Shown here: positions 3,442 to 62,584 of the stretch, piece after piece
Layout: each line of letters starts with the position of its first letter
Numbering within the stretch: position 1 is the first letter of the stretch
Source: Escherichia coli
GTDB taxonomy: Bacteria; Pseudomonadota; Gammaproteobacteria; Enterobacterales; Enterobacteriaceae
Assembly: GCF_003790525.1 (NCBI RefSeq)
Contig: NZ_CP033635.1
DNA length: 64,000 bases
Direction: 5' to 3' (one strand)
Notes under the pieces: generated by a model
Databases searched by the model: none
Told to the model about the DNA's origin: nothing
What the model saw: the letters and a program-made list of their open reading frames with translations, nothing else
Program-made: the position numbers and the translations under genes

Positions 3442-3708
3442 ATTTGCTCCAAATATGAGGCAGGTTAAATTTCCGTGCACATTCTATGTAACATGGTTAA
3501 GGAAAACGAGATCTGACACACACTATAATGACGTCCTGTGACAAGCTTCAAAAATAGTGAGCTGTCATACATTTCTGCTATGTTGTGTATGGAAGCTGAA
3601 AGTTATGTAAATGTGCTAACATTAAACATAATCACAACATTCAAGTCATCAATCTTTTCGTCGTCATAATTCTGGTCTATCAAAGAAATCATCACAATCC
3701 ACTTAAAT

Positions 3709-3727
3709 GAATTTGATAATCATTCTC
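3709..3727. promoter_or_regulatory. Fur box-like site in mntH promoter
   Basis: tgaatttGATAATCATTcTC matches the Fur consensus GATAATGATAATCATTATC at about 12 of 13 aligned positions, ~50 bp upstream of mntH. Confidence 0.55.
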
Positions 3728-3743
3728 GTTTGACATAGCATGA

Positions 3744-3765
3744 AACATAGCAAAGGCTATGTTTT
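3744..3765. promoter_or_regulatory. MntR operator-like palindrome in mntH promoter
   Basis: Perfect 9-bp inverted arms AAACATAGC / GCTATGTTT with 4-bp spacer, 12 bp upstream of the mntH start. Confidence 0.65.
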
Positions 3766-3767
3766 AG

Positions 3768-5015
<1,248 letters not shown>

Positions 5016-5043
5016 TGGAACTGGTGTCGGAGCAGGCATCACT

Positions 5044-5079
5044 GGCGGATGCGGCGTAAAACGCCTTATCCGCCCTACG
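5044..5079. repeat. REP (repetitive extragenic palindromic) element
   Basis: ggcggatgcggcgtaaaacgccttatccgccctacg resembles the E. coli REP consensus, between convergent mntH and ypeC. Confidence 0.6.
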
Positions 5080-5082
5080 TGT

Positions 5083-5409
5083 TTAATGGCGATGTCCATG
5101 TCCGCGGCCTTTTCCGCGATGATCATCACGATCGCGCCAGCCTTCACGATAGCCACGCTCATACGCTTTACGCTTATCCCAGCCACGGTGGTAGCCATTA
5201 TCATGACGCCACCAGCGGTTCTTACGCCATTCATAATTGCGATGCCAGTAGTCACGGTCGCGCCAGTGACCACCGTCCCAGTAATTACCGTAATGATCGC
5301 GATCGCCAATTTGTAATTTGATTGATGGCAGTAGGGTGATTTCACCTGCGTTTGCCGCAAGCGGGGTAAATGCCATCAGGGCGGCCGCCAGAAACAGTGA
5401 CCTGAACAT
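5083..5409 (-). CDS. ypeC: Secreted DUF2502-family protein YpeC, 108 aa
   Basis: Signal peptide [21 protein letters not shown] followed by an Arg/Asp/His/Trp-rich repetitive region. Confidence 0.8.
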
Positions 5410-5523
5410 TGTTATTCTCCTTCACGATCGAAGCCGTCAGCGGCCTGTTAACGCAATATTACGGGGAGGTAAAGCCCCGTATCATCGCCATAACTCTTAA
5501 ATCATAAAGGAGAGCATTTTTTG

Positions 5524-6780
5524 CTAAACGTTATCGTGGGGTGGCTGTTGCTTCGGACGATTGACCATCATCATCGGCTTACCTGCTAATAACAGCCATG
5601 CCGGAAGCATGACGATACAGAGCAGCGGTAGCAATGTGGTATTGGGTACAACGACTGCCGCCATAAAAAGACTTAACCAGCCATCGCGTGTTACCACCAG
5701 CACGATGCCGAGAATAGCGCAGGAAACGGTTATTGCCGCTGGAACGGCGGGAACGTGCTCATGCAGCATCAACCCTAATGCCACCCCGACAAACACTGCC
5801 GGGAATATTCGCCCACCGCGAAAGCCGCTGGCGGCAGCAACCACGAGAGCGGCAAGTTTAATCACGGCCAGCAAAAAGTAATCGCTGGTGCTGAAAGCCT
5901 GATTTGCCACCATCTGCTGCATCTCATCCAGCCCTTTAAATAGCGAAACTGGTCCAGCAATAACCCCCAGAATACCGAGAATAAATCCGCCCACTCCCAG
6001 CATTAGCACCGGATTTTTAATCTGATGCATCATCGCGTGCAACCGTGGCAGACACCATACGGCAACCATCCCTGCTGCGATGGCAATCGCCGCCACAATT
6101 GCACCGCTGAGAATATCGGTCATCTCCATCTGCCCATAATGCGCAATGGGCAGTGAAAAATGAGGATGGAAAAACAATCCGGTGGTTAGCGCACCAGCCG
6201 CCGCCGCCATTAACGGCGCAAAGAGACGATCCCATAGCGGGACTTCACTACTGCCATTTAAGGTTTGCGAAAATATCAACGCCGCCGCAACAGGTGTGCC
6301 AAACAGCGCGCCGATGGTTCCGGCAGAGGCTAAAATAGTCCACTCCATCCGATTGACGCGCGGTAACAGACGAGCACCTATCGCAACCGCAAGGGCGATA
6401 TTGACGGTCATGATCGGATGTTCCGGCCCCAGGCTGACGCCGCCAGCAAGACCGAGAATTAATGCTACGATAAGTCCTGGTAGCGCAGAGGGCGGAACCG
6501 GCGCGCCGATCAGCGGTTCACAGGCGGGGTCTGGTCCAGCATGCCCCTGGCTGAAACGGATAACCAACCCCACCGCAATACCTGTTAGCGTTAATATGGC
6601 GATGATCCAGAAAGGTGAATCCTGGGCTATCCCCAGAGTTCCCGGCAGTCGTAGCCAGAGCAAATTCTGTAATACCGAGGCGATTTTCATCACCACAATC
6701 AGAATAAGACTGGACGCAATCCCAATTGCCACGGCGGGGAGCGATAATAACAACATGGTTCTGGCTCGCGGATGGAGCAT
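5524..6780 (-). CDS. yfeO: ClC-family ion channel-like membrane protein YfeO, 418 aa
   Basis: Highly hydrophobic, Gly/Ala-rich multi-TM translation; position between ypeC and glk. Confidence 0.85.
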
Positions 6781-54801: not shown

Positions 54802-54965
54802 TGTTTGCTCCTGTAATACATTTTTTACTTACGCCCATTTTTTCCATATTGCGTAATACATTCCAGCCGATTTTGTTCTCGTAATACGCTCACAATACTG
54901 TTGTATTACGCTTTCTTATATCGCGGGTGTTAAATCCCGGTATAAGCAATCAGGGAGGCAACACG

Positions 54966-55199
54966 ATGAAAAAACAAAAGAAAATGCGATACGTATTACG
55001 CTGTATTCGTATCCCGCACGAAATCGACCATAAAATAAATCAGATATGTAAGGACAGAGAGATGAACTACTCCCAGTGCGTCAGAATGTTTATCTGTCAG
55101 GGAATTAAGGCCGGGGAAACGCAGGAAGAAGACCGCAACGGGCGCAATGTAGCGGGAGATGTGTGGGCCTGGGCAAATGACCAGAACTACACGACGTAA
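54966..55199 (+). CDS. Small putative ribbon-helix-helix-type DNA-binding protein, 77 aa
   Basis: Start at MKKQKKMRYVLRCIRIP with an upstream AGGGAGG ribosome-binding site; beta-strand then helices typical of RHH regulators; surrounded by GCGTAATAC repeats. Confidence 0.4.
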   Translation: MKKQKKMRYVLRCIRIPHEIDHKINQICKDREMNYSQCVRMFICQGIKAGETQEEDRNGRNVAGDVWAWANDQNYTT

Positions 55200-55249
55200 T
55201 ACAGAAATAACGTAGCCGGTTACACTCGCTGGCTGCGTTATACAAATCA

Positions 55250-55432
55250 CTATGAAGTTTTCAACTTCCTGCGCTTAGTGATGCGTACAAACGACTCAAG
55301 CGTACAAAAACAAGCCCCACACTCAATATTACTGCACTGGTAATACGTTTTGTAGATGTTTTGTTCGTGCTCTTCCAACGAACGACTACGGGTTCGGGCT
55401 GAAGCGCCACAGGCCGGGCAAGGGAAAGACAT
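55250..55432 (-). CDS. Ogr/Delta-family zinc-finger late-gene activator, 60 aa
   Basis: CPACGASARTRSRS...YQCSNIECGACFCTLES matches the P2 Ogr / P4 Delta C-X2-C-X22-C-X4-C signature. Confidence 0.7.
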   Translation of the reverse strand: MSFPCPACGASARTRSRSLEEHEQNIYKTYYQCSNIECGACFCTLESFVRITKRRKLKTS

Positions 55433-56046
55433 ATCACGCTCCTCTTACTGGTGTGAAATTTGACCTATTATATCTCCTGCCGCCCCCTCTGGCTGTATCA
55501 AATAAACCCGCAGCAGTCGCCGCGTATTACGGACGGACGCACCGTTCCCATGCTCACTCGTCACATTCCCCGTATCAGTTCTCTCTTACCGTAAGAACGG
55601 CTCTGGCTGGCGATAAAACTAACCCGGTCGGGCATTCCCGCAGTCTTTAGAGAAAATGTAATTTACCCCCTGAAACGTGGGCTGTTCCCCCGTCACCTGC
55701 GCGCGAAAAACTCACCGTTTTTTGTGCACGCACGAAATCGCCCTCCGGGTGCGCCAGTACTGGGCCGGATGGGCAAAAAGTTACTCTAAAAAATTGTGCA
55801 AATTTGTGCACTTTTGTGCAGATGAACAATAGCGTGAAAAAGAGTGCTTTTGAGAGATTTTTTATGGCAACTGCGCCGCGTGTATTACGTTTTTTACCAT
55901 CCCCGCCGCGCATGTACATACTTCATTTTTCTGCCAGACAACAGGGCAACTCCCCGTGACTGACAGCCCCAAAAAATCAATGATTGATGTTGCATTTTTG
56001 TTAAAGGTTAGACCAGTTGTTTTAGGGCTCTGCCTCATAATCCGGT

Positions 56047-56360
56047 GGGGGGTGCGCAAAGCGGTTACAACGGTTACAACACTCAAAAACACCACTTAAC
56101 AGCATGATTTTAATGGATATTGTTTGTAACCGCTTTGCGGTTACACTGCGGTTACAACGGTTACAGGTTTCAAAAAGCACTTTATTATCAATCAATTAAA
56201 AACTTAACCTGTAACCGCCTGTAACCTAACAAAACGGTTACATGTAACCGCGTTGTAACCGCTTTTATAACTCATCGGACCAGTTATAATATATTGATAT
56301 ATAATACAAAAATAAGTAATTTTAAATTTGTAACCGTTGTAACCGCTTTGCGCACCCCCC
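56047..56360. repeat. Heptamer-repeat cluster (GGTTACA / TGTAACC) bounded by 33-bp perfect inverted repeats, candidate replication origin
   Basis: 56047..56079 ggggggtgcgcaaagcggttacaacggttacaa is the exact reverse complement of 56328..56360; about 14 heptamer copies in both orientations lie between. Confidence 0.6.
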
Positions 56361-56611
56361 CCCAAACTTTAGCGCGACCCTTTAAAATGTTAATTAAACT
56401 CACTTACTCTGTATCTCTCTCGTTAACTCTCTGTTATTGAAATGTATCTCTCCACTGTTTCACTCTTTCTGATAATCAGGGGAAGCAAAAAATTGATGGC
56501 GGCACTACTGCAATATGGCCACCATTGCATTGCTGTTACCGTTGGTTCTGGCCAACAAAAAAGGTCAGCGGGAAACTGACCTCTTTTGCTGTGAATGCGG
56601 CGTTCTGCGGG

Positions 56612-57616
56612 TTACTCTGCTGGCTCTTTTTCTTCGGTGATCACTATGTTGGCTACCGGGTTAAATCTCATGGCATCTGCCAGATAATCCGGTGCAAAAT
56701 GTGCGTATGCCATAGTCTGCTGAATTGTCGCATGCCCAAGGATTTTTTGTAGCGCAAGAATGTTGCCACCGTTCATCACAAAGTGACTGGCGAATGTATG
56801 CCGCAATACATGCGCAGCCTGCCCCCTCGGTAAATCGGGTTTTATTTTTTTTAATGCCCGGCAAAACTCTCTGTACTTCACATCAAACAGTCGCCCGGTT
56901 TCTTTTGTTTTTACGGCATCGCATATTTCCTGCGACACAGGCACCGTTCTTTTTCTACCGTTTTTGGTTTCCAGAAACGTTATTCTGTTATGAACTATTT
57001 GCTCTCCATGCAATCTGCTGGCCTCACTCCAGCGGGCTCCGGTACAAAGACACAAGAGCGCAACCCTTCGTTGATCTCCATTCAGCCCGTCAAGCAACAA
57101 TGTGACCTCGTTTTTTGATAAAAAGGCCATTTCCCGCTGCTTTACATAAAGAACAGGAATACCACGAACCGGATGCTCTGCATCCCACAAACCGATCTTT
57201 TTCAGGGCTGTAAACATCCCCGATAATCTGTTCATGTATCTGTTTGCTGAGGACGGCTTTAATCCTTCCGCAATTTTCTGCGATCGCCATGCAATGATTT
57301 TTAATTTGTTGAGTTCTGCCGCAAACATGTCAGCTCCAAGCTCATTAATAATTTTGCCAAGTTGCTGTTTATCCGTGTTTGCCTTTCGCCTGTGCTGACC
57401 GTGATAGACCCACCACAATTCCAGTAAATCGCTAAGCGTTCTCCGGTCGCGATAGCCCTGTATAAACTCGCGCTTTTCGGCGTTCGCTATGATGTACCGT
57501 TCAGTTGCTGTAGCTATCGATTTTTTGTCAAATATTCTTCTGATGCGCTTCCCTTTACGTCCGCATGGCCTGATATCGAGCAGCCACCGCCCATCATGCA
57601 TCTTTCTGATCGGCAT
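56612..57616 (-). CDS. Tyrosine recombinase / phage-type integrase, 334 aa from Met MPIRK
   Basis: Box I TGARWSEASRL and box II HVLRHTFASH...LGH...Y motifs; strong AGGAGG ribosome-binding site 8 bp upstream; start 2 bp after the primase stop. Confidence 0.75.
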   Translation of the reverse strand: MPIRKMHDGRWLLDIRPCGRKGKRIRRIFDKKSIATATERYIIANAEKREFIQGYRDRRTLSDLLELWWVYHGQHRRKANTDKQQLGKIINELGADMFAAELNKLKIIAWRSQKIAEGLKPSSANRYMNRLSGMFTALKKIGLWDAEHPVRGIPVLYVKQREMAFLSKNEVTLLLDGLNGDQRRVALLCLCTGARWSEASRLHGEQIVHNRITFLETKNGRKRTVPVSQEICDAVKTKETGRLFDVKYREFCRALKKIKPDLPRGQAAHVLRHTFASHFVMNGGNILALQKILGHATIQQTMAYAHFAPDYLADAMRFNPVANIVITEEKEPAE

Positions 57617-57618
57617 GT

Positions 57619-60312
57619 TTAACTCCCCTCCTTGTAACTGAATATCCGGCATTTCAGTACTTCCGGCTCTCTGGCCTCGGCGACCCCTCTTCCGGCGTTT
57701 GCCTGTCTGGAGACCTCACTACGAATGGTTTTGCGGCCTGTCAAAGGTCGGGAACGTCCGGCTGCGAGCAACTCAATCATTTCGCGGTCAGTTCGGATCT
57801 CCACGCGGTGAATAGCGGCAGCCTGTGCCAGTTGCGGAATACTGATAGCAATCCCCTCGCGGCATCCCTTGCCGTAGTGGTTTACACCGTATTTTGTTAT
57901 GCCGTCCAGATAGTCGAACGCCTCCCAGAACGCTATTACTTCCGGCAAGTCATCCGTTACCGCTTTAACTTGTTCCGCTGCCATTCGTTCCAGTTCCTGG
58001 CATGTGGCATTAAGCCATTCATCCGGGATATCAATAACGCATTTCAGCGCCCTGACCAGCGCAATAAGTTGCGCGTGATTTTTGGCAATACGGGGATGGA
58101 GAATATTTTCGCAACCGCAAAGGCGGGTCGTTTCAGGCTCTGAGAGCGCCAGAAACATTTCCATAATTGCCCGTTCACGGCTGACTGCCCGATGAATAAA
58201 CCCTGACACCTTCTCAACGGGGTAGAGTTCCAGTCGTCTCGCCGCCAGCCGGGTATCAGACGAGTGGCGCTTTTTATCGGTATATATGCGAATCAGTCGC
58301 TCAATAATTGCAAGTGAGGCGTTTACCCTGGCATTCTGTGCAATCACGATAGCGCCCTTAAAATCCGGGTCATAGGTGTTGTTATTGTTGGTCTTAACGC
58401 CACGAACGCCGATACCGCCGCCGTTATAGAGGCTTTTCAGGTTATCGAAGTCAAACGCACCTCTTTTTTGCGCATTGCCTCCCCTGTCTGCTTCAATCAG
58501 AACAACAGGTAATCCGGCGACCTGTCCAAAGGTGCGCTTCCAGCCCGCCTCTGATCCTTTGGTTGGATCAACGCCTTCATAGTTGTCACGACCGCACAAC
58601 CGCCAGCAAAAATCAATCAATGTTGATTTACCCGTTCCGGGCTCCCCGGTGACTTCAAGGAAGGGGAAGGATTCTTCTTTATCCCGGATTTGTTCGCTGA
58701 ACAGGGAGCCCAACCAGAAAGCCAGGGTAATAATTCCTTTTTCACCAAAAGCCAGCCAGAGATCTTCCACCCAGGACTCTGTAAACTCATCCGGTTTTTT
58801 GTAGTTAATCTGTAATGTGGGTTTTTCGCTTAATGGTTTTGCGTTTATGCCATCAATTTCAAAATAATCTTCGTCATTGATTTCATAAGTTTTTCCCTTG
58901 TAAACAGCAATATCATTAAACAGCCATGCCCCAATCGCCTTGTTGTATCCGATAAAATCCTGACCAATAACCTCTTTTATTGCGGGAAGGTCATTTTTTA
59001 TTAATGCGTCAAGGTGCGCAGTTGTTCCGGTATAAATGCCGCCTTTTGCCACATGCAACAGGCGTTTTTTAAATTCAGATGCGGATGTCAATTGTCCTGA
59101 TGTAAAGGTGTTTTTCACCGTAGCACCATCCGGGAACGTAACACGGAAGTAATACCATGCTTCATCCGTGTCATTATTTCTAATGTAATAAAGCGGCGCT
59201 GGGTTACAGTTTGCGATTTCTTTTACTGCGCCAGATTCCTTAAGTGCAATTTTGCGCGCTTCATCCTCATCAACACTTCTCTCATTCTTGGCACGCTCTA
59301 CAGCTTTCATATAGCGCTCAATGTCCAGTTTGAACCAGAAAACACGGTTATCAAAAGTAAAATGAAATTCCTTCCGCTCACGAAAGGAAAATATTATTAG
59401 CGCCTTATCTCTCGGAGATTTCGCCAGCAATAAATCACCGTAATGACGGTATCTTTTCACATCATGGCCACGCAGCTTTCCGGCGATGTGTAAATCATTC
59501 CAGTCGCGTTTATTGTTGTTTTTACCTGGCAACGCCGCTGCCGTTCTCCAGCCGTCTTCGGCGCTGCGTTCTGCATGTTTTTTCGCGTAACGCTCACCCG
59601 CACGCCCGTTATCCAGCGCCCACACAATAACCGGACGGGGATTATCCCCGCACAGCTTCGCCAGCTCTTCCAGCGCCTTATCAGGGTAGTTCACGGCAGA
59701 CATGACAGAAACGGCCGCAATGCCATTCTGGTTAAGGCTGATGGCATCAAAGATGCCCTCACAAATCCAGATTTCTTTGGCCTTGCTTAAATCTGCTCCC
59801 GGATAAGCCCACCACAACCCCTTGTAGCTGCCGGAAAAATTCGCCTTGCGCGCGAAGCGTCCCGGTCGGTCTATGATGCGCTCCCACCACACGCCGTCAG
59901 CCAGCGTAAAACGCACAGTAGCGGCCTGTTCGCCGTTTTCCTTGTCCTGGTATCGCTCCTGAGTAAATGCGCCCTTCAGTGGCCCCACAGCAATATTGCG
60001 CGCCTCCTGAAGATAAGCTGCCACCGCTGCATATGGCTCGTCTTTCGTGCTGATATAACGATCTGACCATGATGAAAACACATCCGGGTAAAGTTCTTTG
60101 GTCAGCAGGTCTGTACCGCATTTATTTTCGCGCCCACAGTGTACGATGTACGGCCTTTCAAGGCTGGTAAACAACTCTTTCTTTCCACATTGCGGACAAA
60201 CACCATACCGGAGGTAGTTATTTTCTTCTTTGAAGTTGTAATCACGGATAAGACGGTTAATAATCTCTTTTCTGATGTCAGATTTCATATATAAAACTCC
60301 ACCCCACTGCAC
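57619..60312 (-). CDS. Primase-helicase replication protein (P4 alpha-like), 897 aa
   Basis: N-terminal zinc-binding CPQCG...HCG..C, Toprim-like CEGIFDAISL region and Walker A TGEPGTGKST. Confidence 0.75.
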   Translation of the reverse strand: MQWGGVLYMKSDIRKEIINRLIRDYNFKEENNYLRYGVCPQCGKKELFTSLERPYIVHCGRENKCGTDLLTKELYPDVFSSWSDRYISTKDEPYAAVAAYLQEARNIAVGPLKGAFTQERYQDKENGEQAATVRFTLADGVWWERIIDRPGRFARKANFSGSYKGLWWAYPGADLSKAKEIWICEGIFDAISLNQNGIAAVSVMSAVNYPDKALEELAKLCGDNPRPVIVWALDNGRAGERYAKKHAERSAEDGWRTAAALPGKNNNKRDWNDLHIAGKLRGHDVKRYRHYGDLLLAKSPRDKALIIFSFRERKEFHFTFDNRVFWFKLDIERYMKAVERAKNERSVDEDEARKIALKESGAVKEIANCNPAPLYYIRNNDTDEAWYYFRVTFPDGATVKNTFTSGQLTSASEFKKRLLHVAKGGIYTGTTAHLDALIKNDLPAIKEVIGQDFIGYNKAIGAWLFNDIAVYKGKTYEINDEDYFEIDGINAKPLSEKPTLQINYKKPDEFTESWVEDLWLAFGEKGIITLAFWLGSLFSEQIRDKEESFPFLEVTGEPGTGKSTLIDFCWRLCGRDNYEGVDPTKGSEAGWKRTFGQVAGLPVVLIEADRGGNAQKRGAFDFDNLKSLYNGGGIGVRGVKTNNNNTYDPDFKGAIVIAQNARVNASLAIIERLIRIYTDKKRHSSDTRLAARRLELYPVEKVSGFIHRAVSRERAIMEMFLALSEPETTRLCGCENILHPRIAKNHAQLIALVRALKCVIDIPDEWLNATCQELERMAAEQVKAVTDDLPEVIAFWEAFDYLDGITKYGVNHYGKGCREGIAISIPQLAQAAAIHRVEIRTDREMIELLAAGRSRPLTGRKTIRSEVSRQANAGRGVAEAREPEVLKCRIFSYKEGS

Positions 60313-61281: not shown

Positions 61282-61719
61282 TTAAACATGGCACGCCTCC
61301 CGGACACGGATACGGGCAACAAAGACCAGACGGGATGCCGGAAGCAGGGCGCGCGCTTCGCGCTCACTGGCAGCGGTAACGGTATGAAGGCGGATATTTT
61401 TACCGTGGCACTGCATAAAGCGCCAGATAAAATCAGGGCGTGTTGATATAGCCATTTTGGCGGCTCCTTGATTAAGTTTACGGAGTCTCGCCAGCACGCT
61501 GTCAAACATGGTGGCGGGACGTAACAGGGTTGACAGACTGGCAATCAAGGAACCAGCGAGCGCAAAGGCTCCCCCATTACGCCCCGCCATAATACGGGGT
61601 AGGGTGGAATTACGGGCACAAAAAAACCGCATTACGGAAATATAGCGGCTACCCGCTTGATTGTTCAGGCTGTCAAACCCGGCACCCGCTTTATGAGGTG
61701 CGGGCAAACGATACGCCAT
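61282..61719 (-). CDS. Hypothetical protein, ~145 aa from Met MAYRLPAP
   Basis: ORF in the same-strand array between alpA and the primase gene; start codon uncertain. Confidence 0.3.
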   Translation of the reverse strand: MAYRLPAPHKAGAGFDSLNNQAGSRYISVMRFFCARNSTLPRIMAGRNGGAFALAGSLIASLSTLLRPATMFDSVLARLRKLNQGAAKMAISTRPDFIWRFMQCHGKNIRLHTVTAASEREARALLPASRLVFVARIRVREACHV

Positions 61720-62362: not shown

Positions 62363-62584
62363 TTAAGCCTGAAAACGTTGTTGTTTTCTTTCTTCTATCC
62401 AGTCGATAATTTCCTCTTCAACCCATGCAACCGCGCGAGGGCCTATTTTTATTGGTTTGGGGAATATATCAGATTTTATATCTTCGTAAATTCGAGCTCT
62501 TGATCTCCCTGTGATTTCAATGACTCTGGGGAGTCTTATTAATTTTTGAATCCGCCTTTCGCTGGTCTGTGAGTATGCTGACAT
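62363..62584 (-). CDS. alpA: AlpA-family prophage transcriptional regulator, 73 aa
   Basis: IRLPRVIEITGRSRARIYEDIKSDIFPKPIKIGPRAVAWVEEEIIDWI matches the AlpA/MerR-like excisionase-regulator signature. Confidence 0.8.
   Translation of the reverse strand: MSAYSQTSERRIQKLIRLPRVIEITGRSRARIYEDIKSDIFPKPIKIGPRAVAWVEEEIIDWIEERKQQRFQA

What the first reader, a model, noticed from the sequence alone, without database searches (positions are those of the whole stretch)
54851..55200. Five copies of a GCGTAATAC motif around a small RHH-like gene and the divergent promoter
GCGTAATAC or its complement occurs at about 54851, 54880, 54903, 54991 and 55193. These positions span the region between the start of the two-gene operon (54801) and the start of a 77-aa ribbon-helix-helix-like ORF (54966), and also the ORF's 3' end. 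This looks like an operator array for a small repressor controlling the neighbouring operon.
Basis: seen in the sequence. Interest (0 to 1): 0.45.

Follow-up and report, generated by a model that had tools for sequence, protein, structure and literature searches.

The report
Small repressor's operator sites in phage satellite
A short palindromic DNA word repeated nine times around a tiny gene in a phage-satellite island is very probably the binding site of that gene's ribbon-helix-helix protein, which gates the satellite's own capsid operon; this is an ordinary kind of genetic switch found in a little-studied element.

Summary
The true unit is a 9-bp palindrome, YGTAWTACR. It occurs nine times in window 54813-55888, where about 0.16 copies are expected.

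The sites keep the same places in distant lineages:
- They flank a shared TGT-N12-ACA Ogr box.
- One lies over the -30/-24 region of the capsid promoter.
- One lies over the -35 region of the small gene's own promoter.
- One lies in the V-L-R codons of the small gene.
- Others lie at fixed offsets from cos (-155 and about +203).

The site sequence changes together with residues on one face of the predicted beta strand. L11R goes with GTAWTAC becoming GTCWGAC. T13A goes with GTATTAC becoming GTATAAC. P2-like helper phages that share the cos module lack the sites.

The repressive sign and the role of the cos-flanking sites are inferred. I class it as a new member of a known kind, of moderate interest.

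The parts
52820..54091 (-). P2-family major capsid gene of the satellite. It is the second gene of the regulated operon and encodes 423 aa, with about 100 extra N-terminal residues relative to P2 gpN.
   Evidence: PHROG phrog_70 major head protein, E 2e-77. NCBIfam major_capsid_P2, E 4e-39, below the curated cut-off. PGAP annotation in relatives.
54091..54801 (-). 236-aa gene in the position of a scaffold gene (gpO-N order). It is the first gene of the regulated operon and matches no known family.
   Evidence: ORF. No PHROG or NCBIfam hit. 22-32% identical homologues occupy the same position in all lineages.
54812..54820 (.). Palindrome TGTAATACA beside the Shine-Dalgarno sequence of the 236-aa gene, 12 nt from its ATG.
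   Evidence: Same place in L016 and L052, and a variant in L015, L041 and L047.
54837..54842 (-). -10-like hexamer AAAAAT of the leftward capsid-operon promoter.
   Evidence: It starts 43.5 nt from the box centre, the same as in L014, L027 and L028. Inferred; the transcription start is not mapped.
54852..54860 (.). Site A, CGTAATACA, at about -30 to -24 of the leftward promoter.
   Evidence: It lies 17-24 nt left of the Ogr box in every lineage. The sequence is GTAWTAC or GTCWGAC according to lineage.
54877..54894 (.). Ogr/Delta-type box, TCT-N12-ACA (one mismatch to TGT-N12-ACA), shared by the two divergent promoters.
   Evidence: Perfect TGT-N12-ACA at the homologous place in L015, L016, L019, L023 and L041. 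-10-like hexamers lie 43.5 nt from its centre on both sides. Consensus taken from PMC3931495.
54880..54888 (.). Extra palindrome CGTAATACG inside the spacer of the Ogr box. It is specific to the window's E. coli lineage.
   Evidence: L052.
54902..54910 (.). Site B, TGTATTACG, over the -35 region of the small gene's promoter. Its centre is 50 bp from that of site A.
   Evidence: 63 nt before the small gene's ATG in the window, L016, L019 and L023 (62 nt in L041, 64 nt in L015). 18-19 nt before GATAAT/GACAAT in L015, L016, L019 and L023.
54930..54935 (+). Weak -10-like hexamer TTAAAT of the small gene's promoter.
   Evidence: Read. It starts 44.5 nt from the box centre; other lineages have GATAAT/GACAAT at 43.5. 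Inferred.
54966..55199 (+). 77-aa ribbon-helix-helix gene: beta strand at residues 9-17, helices at 18-30 and 35-54, and a C-terminal helix with an invariant Trp.
54992..55000 (.). Palindrome inside the small gene, formed by codons GTA TTA CGC of V10-L11-R12 in the recognition strand.
   Evidence: GTA is kept in 5 of 5 and TTA in 4 of 5 V-L-R lineages compared, while the codons of S, R, I and P vary.
55195..55203 (.). Palindrome CGTAATACA over the stop codon of the small gene.
   Evidence: A comparable site lies near the 3' end in L016, and GTATGAC in L014.
55250..55432 (-). 60-aa Ogr/Delta-like zinc-finger gene, convergent with the small gene; the presumed late activator.
   Evidence: PGAP name. 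PF04606 in relatives. phrog_603, E 1e-10.
55340..55346 (.). GTAATAC inside the ogr-like gene (codons T-Y-Y). Its flanks do not fit the palindrome, so it may be fortuitous.
   Evidence: It is conserved among E. coli relatives, but there is no positional counterpart in other lineages.
55523..55531 (.). Palindrome CGTATTACG, 155 nt left of the cos core.
   Evidence: The offset is -155 in the window, L014, L027 and L028, -154 in L023 and -156 in L052, in flanks that otherwise do not align. It is GTCAGAC in the SIRRT lineages.
55679..55697 (.). cos core, GGGCTGTTCCCCCGTCACC. It lies inside a helper-like module of about 55655-55815 that includes the TTGTGCA repeats.
   Evidence: The same sequence lies next to portal gene Q in P2-like prophages.
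55881..55889 (.). Palindrome TGTATTACG, 203 nt right of the cos core.
   Evidence: The offset is +200 to +203 in the window, L014, L023, L027, L028, L041, L045, L047 and L052. It is absent from 13 P2-like phage loci where the same cos core was found.

Best explanation
**What it is.** The island is a satellite of P2-like phages. In place of P4's sid and psu genes it carries its own scaffold-like gene and a P2-type capsid gene. Between that operon and the divergent 77-aa gene lies one Ogr/Delta box. The box centre is about 55 bp upstream of a -10-like hexamer on each side, so both genes appear to be late genes switched on by the helper's Ogr or by the satellite's own Ogr-like protein.

**How it most likely works.** The 77-aa protein is a ribbon-helix-helix dimer whose beta ribbon reads the 9-bp palindrome YGTAWTACR.
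- Site A lies between the Ogr box and the -10 of the capsid promoter.
- Site B lies over the -35 of the protein's own promoter.
- In this lineage a third site lies inside the Ogr box, and a fourth abuts the ribosome-binding site of the first operon gene.
- A fifth lies in the protein's own V-L-R codons.

Occupying these sites should shut off or limit capsid-operon transcription and the protein's own synthesis. That would be a late negative-feedback governor. The 50-bp spacing between sites A and B, and the conserved C-terminal helix, suggest cooperative binding that brackets the activator box.

Further copies at fixed distances from cos (-155 and +203) are bound by the same protein, for a purpose not established.

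**Shown versus inferred.**
- Shown: the clustering of the sites, their positional conservation, the covariation with the protein, and the RHH fold of the model.
- Inferred: physical binding, the repressive sign, the transcription start points, Ogr dependence and cooperativity.
For: **Clustering and conservation**
- Nine copies in 1.08 kb where 0.16 are expected.
- All nine core heptamers are invariant in ten relatives.

**The gene and its fold**
- The gene family is real and always syntenic.
- Linked-dimer AF2 gives beta-alpha-alpha twice, with core pLDDT 79-86.
- Sub-threshold sequence hits are mostly to RHH families.

**Same positions in distant lineages**
- Sites lie at -113 and -63 from the small gene's ATG and flank the Ogr box.
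- -10-like hexamers lie exactly 43.5 nt from the box centre on both sides.

**Covariation**
- The beta strand SIRRT (R11) goes with GTCWGAC at site A, at cos -155 and at cos +202. The strand S-V-L-R-T/S/C goes with GTAWTAC.
- A13 (L015, L046, L047) goes with GTATAAC. The close relatives L041 and L045, with T13, have GTATTAC at the same site B.

**Selection at the DNA level**
- Codons GTA TTA are retained despite synonymous turnover elsewhere in the strand.

**Negative control**
- P2-like phages sharing the cos module have no RHH gene and no sites at -155 or +203.
Against: - There is no experimental binding or expression data.
- No Pfam or NCBIfam model reaches its threshold.
- The monomer AF2 model was poor (pLDDT 62). 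The RHH fold rests on an artificial linked-dimer model built from a 13-row alignment.
- Whole modules are inherited together, so the Ogr-like protein and other genes also differ between the lineages that differ in site type.
- In the window's own lineage the Ogr box is imperfect (TCT-N12-ACA) and the rightward -10 is weak.
- The SIRRT lineages have only site A in the promoter, so autoregulation is not universal.
- pN/pS among E. coli alleles is only about 0.5.
- The cos-flanking sites are not explained by a promoter-operator role.
Confidence: 0.68

Rival explanations
1. The palindromes are bound by another factor: the adjacent Ogr/Delta-like zinc-finger protein, a helper-phage protein or a host regulator. 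On this view the small RHH protein does something else.
For: The Ogr-like gene is always adjacent, and it too differs between lineages (60-74 aa against 81-98 aa in the SIRRT lineages). Covariation therefore cannot formally single out the RHH protein.
Against: - A separate canonical TGT-N12-ACA box is present for Ogr.
- The two covarying residues sit at alternate positions (11 and 13) of the predicted RHH recognition strand. L to R paired with A:T to C:G is a chemically sensible change.
- L041/L045 and L046/L047 differ in site B and at residue 13 (T against A); the only other differences in that stretch are P4-A5 to P4-I5 and V10I.
- L016-L018 have no called Ogr gene, and in L016 the Ogr-like reading frame is split, yet L016 keeps seven sites and an intact RHH gene.
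- The sites are absent from the helper-like prophage's late promoter region.
- I know of no E. coli regulator with this consensus (own knowledge).
Confidence: 0.1
2. The RHH protein does bind the sites, but its main job is architectural or packaging-related. It would mark or insulate the satellite's cos region, or bias the helper terminase toward satellite DNA. The promoter sites would then serve only for autoregulation or activation rather than repression of the capsid operon.
For: - Sites keep fixed offsets from cos (-155, -50, +200 to +203) in flanks that otherwise do not align.
- Their type covaries with the protein.
- They lie just outside the cos module shared with helpers.
- They are absent from P2-like phages.
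Against: - Sites A and B sit on core promoter elements at conserved positions, which is the classic repressor geometry.
- No partner ATPase or terminase gene is present in the island.
- No data bear on packaging.
Confidence: 0.17
3. The repeats are non-functional: chance, compositional bias or remnants of a duplication. The small ORF would then be a spurious or decaying reading frame.
For: - pN/pS is about 0.5 among E. coli alleles.
- Some strains carry frameshifted C-terminal halves (P0005 and P0007).
- No family model matches the protein.
Against: - The cluster statistics.
- The positional conservation and symmetric covariation across lineages with about 30% protein identity.
- Intact ORFs of 70-82 aa with eight invariant residues across 15 homologues.
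- The confident RHH core in the dimer model.
Confidence: 0.03

Closest known systems
Bacteriophage P4 late control region (divergent Psid and PLL promoters, delta/Ogr boxes, Vis protein)
   Same: - Divergent, Ogr/delta-type late promoters.
- On one side is the capsid-morphogenesis operon. On the other, the first gene is a small DNA-binding regulator that feeds back on the late promoters (own knowledge of Polo et al. 1996).
- Same kind of element: a satellite of P2-like phages with P4-type int, a Vis/AlpA homologue and C4/isrK RNA.
   Different: - The small protein is unrelated to Vis (hhalign probability 1%). A Vis/AlpA homologue sits elsewhere in the island, at 62363-62584.
- P4 has one GTAWTAC and no array.
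- The operon encodes a scaffold-like protein and a P2-type capsid protein, not Sid, delta and Psu.
- One box appears to serve both promoters.
Arc and Mnt repressors of the phage P22 immI region
   Same: - Small ribbon-helix-helix dimers that read short, partly palindromic operators with the beta ribbon.
- Arc is made from the promoter it shuts off and also affects the divergent promoter, which is negative feedback on a divergent pair (own knowledge).
   Different: - No significant sequence similarity.
- A different operator word.
- Nine dispersed sites, including intragenic and cos-flanking ones, rather than one 21-bp operator.
- An extra C-terminal helix with an invariant Trp.
RHH regulators with multi-site arrays: MetJ (tandem 8-bp palindromic metboxes), omega of pSM19035 (heptad arrays at several promoters), the PutA RHH domain (five GTTGCA sites in the divergent put control region)
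   Different: - These are chromosomal or plasmid regulators with co-repressors or partner proteins.
- None brackets an Ogr-type activator box or flanks a cos site.
- Membership in any of these families fails by sequence.
TraY and TraM relaxosome accessory proteins
   Different: - TraY is a tandem RHH in one chain; the match reflects my artificial linked dimer.
- There is no relaxase or conjugation context.
- Sequence identity is 6%.

Membership tests
Ribbon-helix-helix (Arc/MetJ/CopG) superfamily | A beta-alpha-alpha unit that forms an intertwined dimer with a two-stranded antiparallel ribbon. | tested here: met
Ribbon-helix-helix (Arc/MetJ/CopG) superfamily | A significant match to a curated RHH sequence family. 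| tested here: not met
   Best hits are CopG_antitoxin i-E 0.11, ORF56 E 0.007 (16 bits against a cut-off of 50), RelB_DinJ 0.014 and YlcI_YnfO 0.07. No PDB sequence hit. One source names P0027 'Arc family DNA-binding protein'.
Ribbon-helix-helix (Arc/MetJ/CopG) superfamily | Sequence-specific DNA recognition by side chains of the beta ribbon. | tested here: inconclusive
   Indirect but positive. Residues 11 and 13, on one face of the strand, covary with bases of the palindrome in independent lineage pairs. Binding itself cannot be tested with these tools.
P2-type (Ogr/Delta-dependent) late promoter | A TGT-N12-ACA dyad upstream of the promoter. | tested here: inconclusive
   The window has TCT-N12-ACA at 54877-54894, one mismatch. 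The dyad is perfect at the homologous place in L015, L016, L019, L023 and L041, and is TGT-N12-AGA in the SIRRT lineages and in a helper prophage's O/P region. Consensus taken from PMC3931495.
P2-type (Ogr/Delta-dependent) late promoter | The dyad is centred near -55, with a -10 element and a poor -35. | tested here: met
   -10-like hexamers start 43.5 nt from the dyad centre on both sides in most lineages, which puts the centre at about -55.5. No sigma-70 -35/-10 pair was found in the region. The -55 figure is my own knowledge. Transcription starts are not mapped.
P2-type (Ogr/Delta-dependent) late promoter | Transcription depends on an Ogr/Delta-type activator. | not testable with these tools
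   An Ogr/Delta-like gene is adjacent, but no expression data exist.
P4 Vis / AlpA family | Sequence homology to P4 ORF88 (Vis). | tested here: not met
   hhalign probability 1.1%. The island's true Vis/AlpA homologue is at 62363-62584 (tblastn E 9e-8).
P4-like satellite | Core genes sid, psu, delta, alpha, epsilon, int and alpA. | tested here: not met
   tblastn of P4 proteins against the window finds only Int (59%) and Vis/AlpA (36%). It finds no Sid, Psu, Delta, alpha or epsilon at E 1e-3. The island does have a primase of another type, an Ogr-like gene, C4/isrK RNAs and a P2-type cos. It works like a P4-type satellite but is not a P4-family member by gene content.
Type II antitoxin (RHH antitoxin with an adjacent toxin) | A co-directional toxin gene immediately downstream. 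| tested here: not met
   The next gene is the convergent ogr-like gene in the window and in most lineages where a downstream gene is called. The island's MazEF pair is separate, at 52184-52776.

The most novel reading that the evidence does not exclude
The RHH protein may be more than a promoter repressor. It may also be a satellite-specific cos-marking factor.

Its palindromes sit at fixed distances (-155, -50, +200 to +203) just outside the cos module copied from P2-like helpers. They sit in sequence that otherwise does not align between lineages. They switch type together with the protein, and helper phages lack them.

Bound dimers about 358 bp apart could loop or bracket cos. That could favour packaging of satellite DNA into satellite-made capsids, or protect cos until those capsids are ready. 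Capsid supply and DNA packaging would then be coupled through one small protein.
Probability: 0.2. Interest if true: 0.7.

Novelty: new member of a known kind. Interest (0 to 1): 0.45.

Why it matters
Small RHH repressors with short operator arrays are textbook. What is new here is the setting and a few details.

**Setting.** The family of enterobacterial P2-dependent satellites studied here carries its own scaffold and capsid genes, and I found no description of it in the searched literature. The work identifies its late-gene switch.

**A testable recognition code.** The comparison gives a ready-made specificity code: L11R pairs with the A-to-C change in each half-site, and T13A pairs with the T-to-A change. 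This can be tested directly and could be used to build orthogonal repressor-operator pairs.

**Regulatory layout.** One activator box appears to drive two divergent late promoters, each gated by the same repressor.

**The cos-flanking sites.** If these prove functional, they would link regulation of satellite capsid production to packaging. That bears on how satellites outcompete their helpers.

Tried and rejected
- **Arm-type sites for the internal P2-type integrase (56612-57652).** Rejected: the sites span more than 1 kb, sit on promoter elements, and covary with the RHH strand.
- **The motif as the Ogr/Delta site.** Rejected as the main reading: a separate TGT-N12-ACA box is present.
- **The 77-aa protein as P4 Vis.** Rejected.
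- **Antitoxin reading.** Rejected: there is no adjacent toxin.
- **RNA-level element.** Not pursued: the sites occur in both orientations and in both transcribed and untranscribed DNA.
- **Monomer AF2 model.** Uninformative.
- **Sequence searches of the PDB.** Gave nothing.
- **The 90-aa ORF at 55647-55919.** Probably spurious: it spans cos and carries frameshifting indels among relatives.
- **The motif in the helper's O/P late promoter.** Searched for and not found.

Full report
**1. Observation**

The exact 9-mer GCGTAATAC occurs at 54851(+), 54903(-) and 54993(-). The copies reported near 54880 and 55193 are TCGTAATAC and ACGTAATAC. All five share the 8-mer CGTAATAC.

Reading the flanks shows that the unit is a 9-bp palindrome, YGTAWTACR, with an invariant 7-bp core GTAWTAC. 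That core occurs 18 times in the window against 5.9 expected. Nine of the 18 lie between 54813 and 55888.

- Local composition predicts 0.16 copies in that stretch.
- 200 first-order Markov simulations never gave more than three copies in 1.1 kb.
- The nine copies elsewhere in the window never have the Y...R flanks. Eight of the nine clustered copies do.
- In ten E. coli relatives that are 94-97% identical over this region, none of the 63 core positions has changed.

**2. Context**

The window from about 52 kb to its end is a satellite-type island.

| Feature | Coordinates |
|---|---|
| mazEF | 52184-52776 |
| P2-family major capsid gene | 52820-54091 |
| 236-aa gene, no family match | 54091-54801 |
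| 77-aa gene | 54966-55199 |
| Convergent Ogr/Delta-like zinc-finger gene | 55250-55432 |
| P2-type cos | core 55679-55697 |
| Iteron-rich probable origin | about 56040-56360 |
| P2-type integrase and primase | 56612-60312 |
| C4 and isrK RNAs | 61507-61701 |
| Vis/AlpA homologue and P4-type integrase | 62363 to end |

The cos assignment rests on the same roughly 75 bp lying next to portal gene Q in P2-like prophages. P4's Sid, Psu, Delta, alpha and epsilon have no homologue here. The element behaves like a P4-type satellite, but it carries its own scaffold-position and capsid genes.

**3. The small gene**

A word-indexed search found only close E. coli relatives. An exhaustive HMMER search then found four distant homologues, and a profile search found more. 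In total there are at least seven lineages, in Escherichia, Salmonella, Izhakiella, Candidatus Erwinia dacicola and metagenomes. They are 28-40% identical to the window protein.

Every one lies in the same arrangement: capsid gene, then a roughly 240-aa gene, both leftward; then the divergent small gene; then, in most lineages, a convergent Ogr/Delta gene. Eight positions are invariant across 15 homologues: R12, R15, P17, D21, I24, Y35, C38 and W69.

- Curated profiles give only sub-threshold hits. Most are to RHH families: CopG antitoxin, ORF56, RelB/DinJ and YlcI/YnfO.
- A monomer AF2 model was poor.
- A model of two copies joined by a flexible linker, built with a 13-row alignment, gave strand 9-17, helix 18-30 and helix 35-54 in both copies, with core pLDDT 79-86.

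I therefore accept the RHH fold at the level of a model. Membership of any named RHH sequence family fails.

The protein is unrelated to P4 Vis. Within E. coli, pN/pS is about 0.5. The cross-lineage conservation is what shows that it is a gene.

**4. The sites in other lineages**

GTAWTAC arrays recur in L016 (7 copies), L023/L025 (6), L019 (4-5) and L052 (9), but not elsewhere in those loci.

The positions are the same. Site A is 112-113 nt and site B 62-64 nt before the small gene's ATG. One site lies about 12-18 nt from the ATG of the leftward operon. One lies at the V-L-R codons of the small gene.

Anchoring the alignments on a TGT-N12-ACA dyad shows site A 17-24 nt to its left and site B 26-33 nt to its right in every lineage that has them. 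Their centres are 49-50 bp apart. The dyad is the consensus of P2 late promoters, which depend on Ogr (PMC3931495). It is perfect in L015, L016, L019, L023 and L041. It reads TGT-N12-AGA in three lineages and in a helper prophage's O/P region, and TCT-N12-ACA in the window.

A -10-like hexamer starts exactly 43.5 nt from the dyad centre on both sides.
- Rightward: GATAAT in L015, L019 and L023; GACAAT in L016; CAGAAT in L014; AAAAAT in L027.
- Leftward: AAAAAT in the window, L014, L027 and L028.

That puts the dyad near -55.5 for both promoters, which is the P2 late-promoter geometry (the -55 figure is my own knowledge). One box therefore appears to serve two divergent late promoters. Site A covers about -30 to -24 of the capsid-operon promoter. 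Site B covers about -37 to -31 of the small gene's promoter. The window lineage adds a site inside the dyad spacer (54880-54888). No ordinary sigma-70 promoter was found in the region.

**5. Covariation**

Lineages whose predicted beta strand reads S-V-L-R-(T/S/C)-x-R-I-P use GTAWTAC.

The three lineages whose strand reads S-I-R-R-T-I-R-I-P (L014, L027, L028) have no GTAWTAC in the control region. They carry TGTCWGACA at site A. The change is symmetric in both half-sites, as expected for a dimer on a palindrome. The same switch is seen at two other places (see section 6).

A second case concerns residue 13.
- L015, L046 and L047 have Ala at position 13 and GTATAAC at site B.
- Their close relatives L041 and L045 have Thr and GTATTAC at the same site.

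Residues 11 and 13 are alternate positions of the strand. By analogy with Arc, where Q9, N11 and R13 face the DNA, they would be on the DNA-facing side (own knowledge).

Finally, V and L of the strand are encoded GTA TTA in four of five V-L-R lineages and GTA TTG in the fifth. The codons of the neighbouring conserved S, R, I and P vary freely. The intragenic site is therefore kept by selection on the DNA.

**6. Sites around cos**

Measured from the cos core, sites lie at these offsets:
- **-155:** window, L014, L027 and L028; -154 in L023; -156 in L052; -168 in L016.
- **-50:** L016 and L023.
- **+200 to +203:** window, L014, L023, L027, L028, L041, L045, L047 and L052; +189 in L016.

The DNA between these sites and the shared cos module does not align between lineage groups.

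The -155 site is GTCAGAC in all three SIRRT lineages. At about +202, L028 has GTCGGAC and L027 the hybrid GTATGAC. L014 has GTATTAC there, within a flank nearly identical to the window's, apparently a recombinant.

A pattern taken from the cos-adjacent TTGTGCA repeats found 26 loci in species-representative genomes.
- Five carry the RHH gene. Four of those have the +202/+203 site.
- Seventeen of the other 21 match P2-like portal or terminase genes. In the 13 where the cos core was found there is no RHH gene and no site at -155 or +203. They hold only three GTAWTAC in all in the -1300 to +350 intervals.

The cos-flanking sites are therefore specific to the satellites and tied to the protein. 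A promoter-operator role does not explain them. Their distance to the ogr-like gene varies from 92 to more than 500 nt, whereas their distance to cos is fixed.

**7. Mechanism and rivals**

The best-supported reading is as follows.
1. After helper activation, Ogr (or the satellite's Ogr-like protein) binds the central box and fires both divergent late promoters.
2. The RHH protein accumulates.
3. It occupies sites A and B (and the box-internal and SD-proximal sites in this lineage). This limits capsid-operon transcription and its own synthesis.

This is functionally like Vis at P4's PLL/Psid region and like Arc at P22 Pant, but it uses a different protein family and a different operator.

- Shown: clustering, positional conservation, covariation and the fold of the model.
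- Inferred: binding, the sign of regulation, start sites and cooperativity.

Rivals:
- **Another binder.** This cannot be formally excluded, because whole modules co-inherit. It is disfavoured by the separate Ogr box, by the chemistry and placement of the covarying residues, and by L016, where the ogr-like frame is split but the RHH gene is intact and seven sites remain.
- **A mainly architectural or packaging role.** This stays open because of the cos-flanking sites.
- **Chance.** Excluded.

**8. Novelty**

No paper in the searched library combines ribbon-helix-helix with P4-like satellites. The surveys of P4-like elements that I checked do not mention capsid-encoding variants.

The switch itself is of a well-known kind, so I class the finding as a new member of a known kind, with moderate interest. 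The cos-flanking sites are the part that could turn out to be new.

Noticed in passing
window 52820-54801, and L014-L029, L041-L047, L052: This satellite family carries its own P2-type major capsid gene, with about 100 extra N-terminal residues, and an upstream 236-244-aa gene of unknown family. These stand where P4 has sid, delta and psu. I found no description of such capsid-encoding P2-dependent satellites in the searched papers.
   Followed up: partly
window 55655-55815: A P2-type cos core (GGGCTGTTCCCCCGTCACC, 55679-55697) is followed by a conserved block containing three to four TTGTGCA repeats. The whole module is shared with P2-like phages, where it lies next to portal gene Q. A pattern taken from it found loci in more than ten genera, including Pantoea, Erwinia, Citrobacter, Edwardsiella, Kosakonia and Enterobacter. 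The role of the TTGTGCA repeats is unknown.
   Followed up: partly
window 56040-56360: A dense array of GGTTACA/TGTAACC iterons in direct and inverted orientation surrounds an AT-rich stretch, with 36-nt inverted arms at 56044-56079 and 56328-56363. This is probably the satellite's replication origin.
   Followed up: no
window 55647-55919 (- strand): The 90-aa ORF that PGAP annotates in some relatives spans cos and carries frameshifting indels among close relatives. It is probably not a gene.
   Followed up: partly
window 56612-57652 and 63195-63998: The island has two tyrosine recombinases. One is a P2-type integrase overlapping the 3' end of the primase gene, 45-52% identical to integrases of P2-like phages. 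The other is a P4-type integrase (59% to P4 Int) at the far end, next to a Vis/AlpA homologue. In the roughly 12.2-kb element L045 I detected only the P2-type integrase by tblastn; I did not search L045 with P4 Int.
   Followed up: no
L045 (12,723-bp contig) and L041 (11,984-bp contig): In L045 the cos-adjacent pattern occurs at both ends of the contig (positions 117 and 12324). This suggests a complete circular or terminally redundant satellite genome of about 12.2 kb, close to P4's size. The contig is binned in a 'Bacillota' MAG, which is probably a binning error.
   Followed up: no
window 52184-52776; L016 5179-5734; L019 434-1026: The end of the island beyond the capsid gene holds a different toxin-antitoxin pair in different lineages: MazEF, ParE/RelB or HicAB. 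This looks like a variable cargo or defence hotspot.
   Followed up: no
window 61507-61714: C4 antisense RNA (74.6 bits) and isrK (50.6 bits) lie upstream of the replication operon. This is the P4 cI-type RNA immunity region.
   Followed up: no
L013 (E. coli K_EC180) 3502-4201; L012 (E. coli GF60) 3798-6105: Two natural rearrangements occur right of the ogr-like gene. One is a deletion that fuses the ogr-like gene to the internal integrase and removes cos and the origin. The other is an IS21-family insertion about 115 bp from the ogr start.
   Followed up: no
L016 8251-8543: The Ogr-like gene of this Salmonella lineage appears split by a frameshift: RCPF... lies in one frame and ...YYQCNN... 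in another. No Ogr_Delta gene is called in L016, L017 or L018. I read the split frame in L016 only.
   Followed up: partly
window 43019-50932: A 2637-aa AIDA-I/ECSE_1600-type autotransporter adhesin gene lies left of the island. E. coli relatives instead have hpt next to mazE, and hpt is absent from the window.
   Followed up: no
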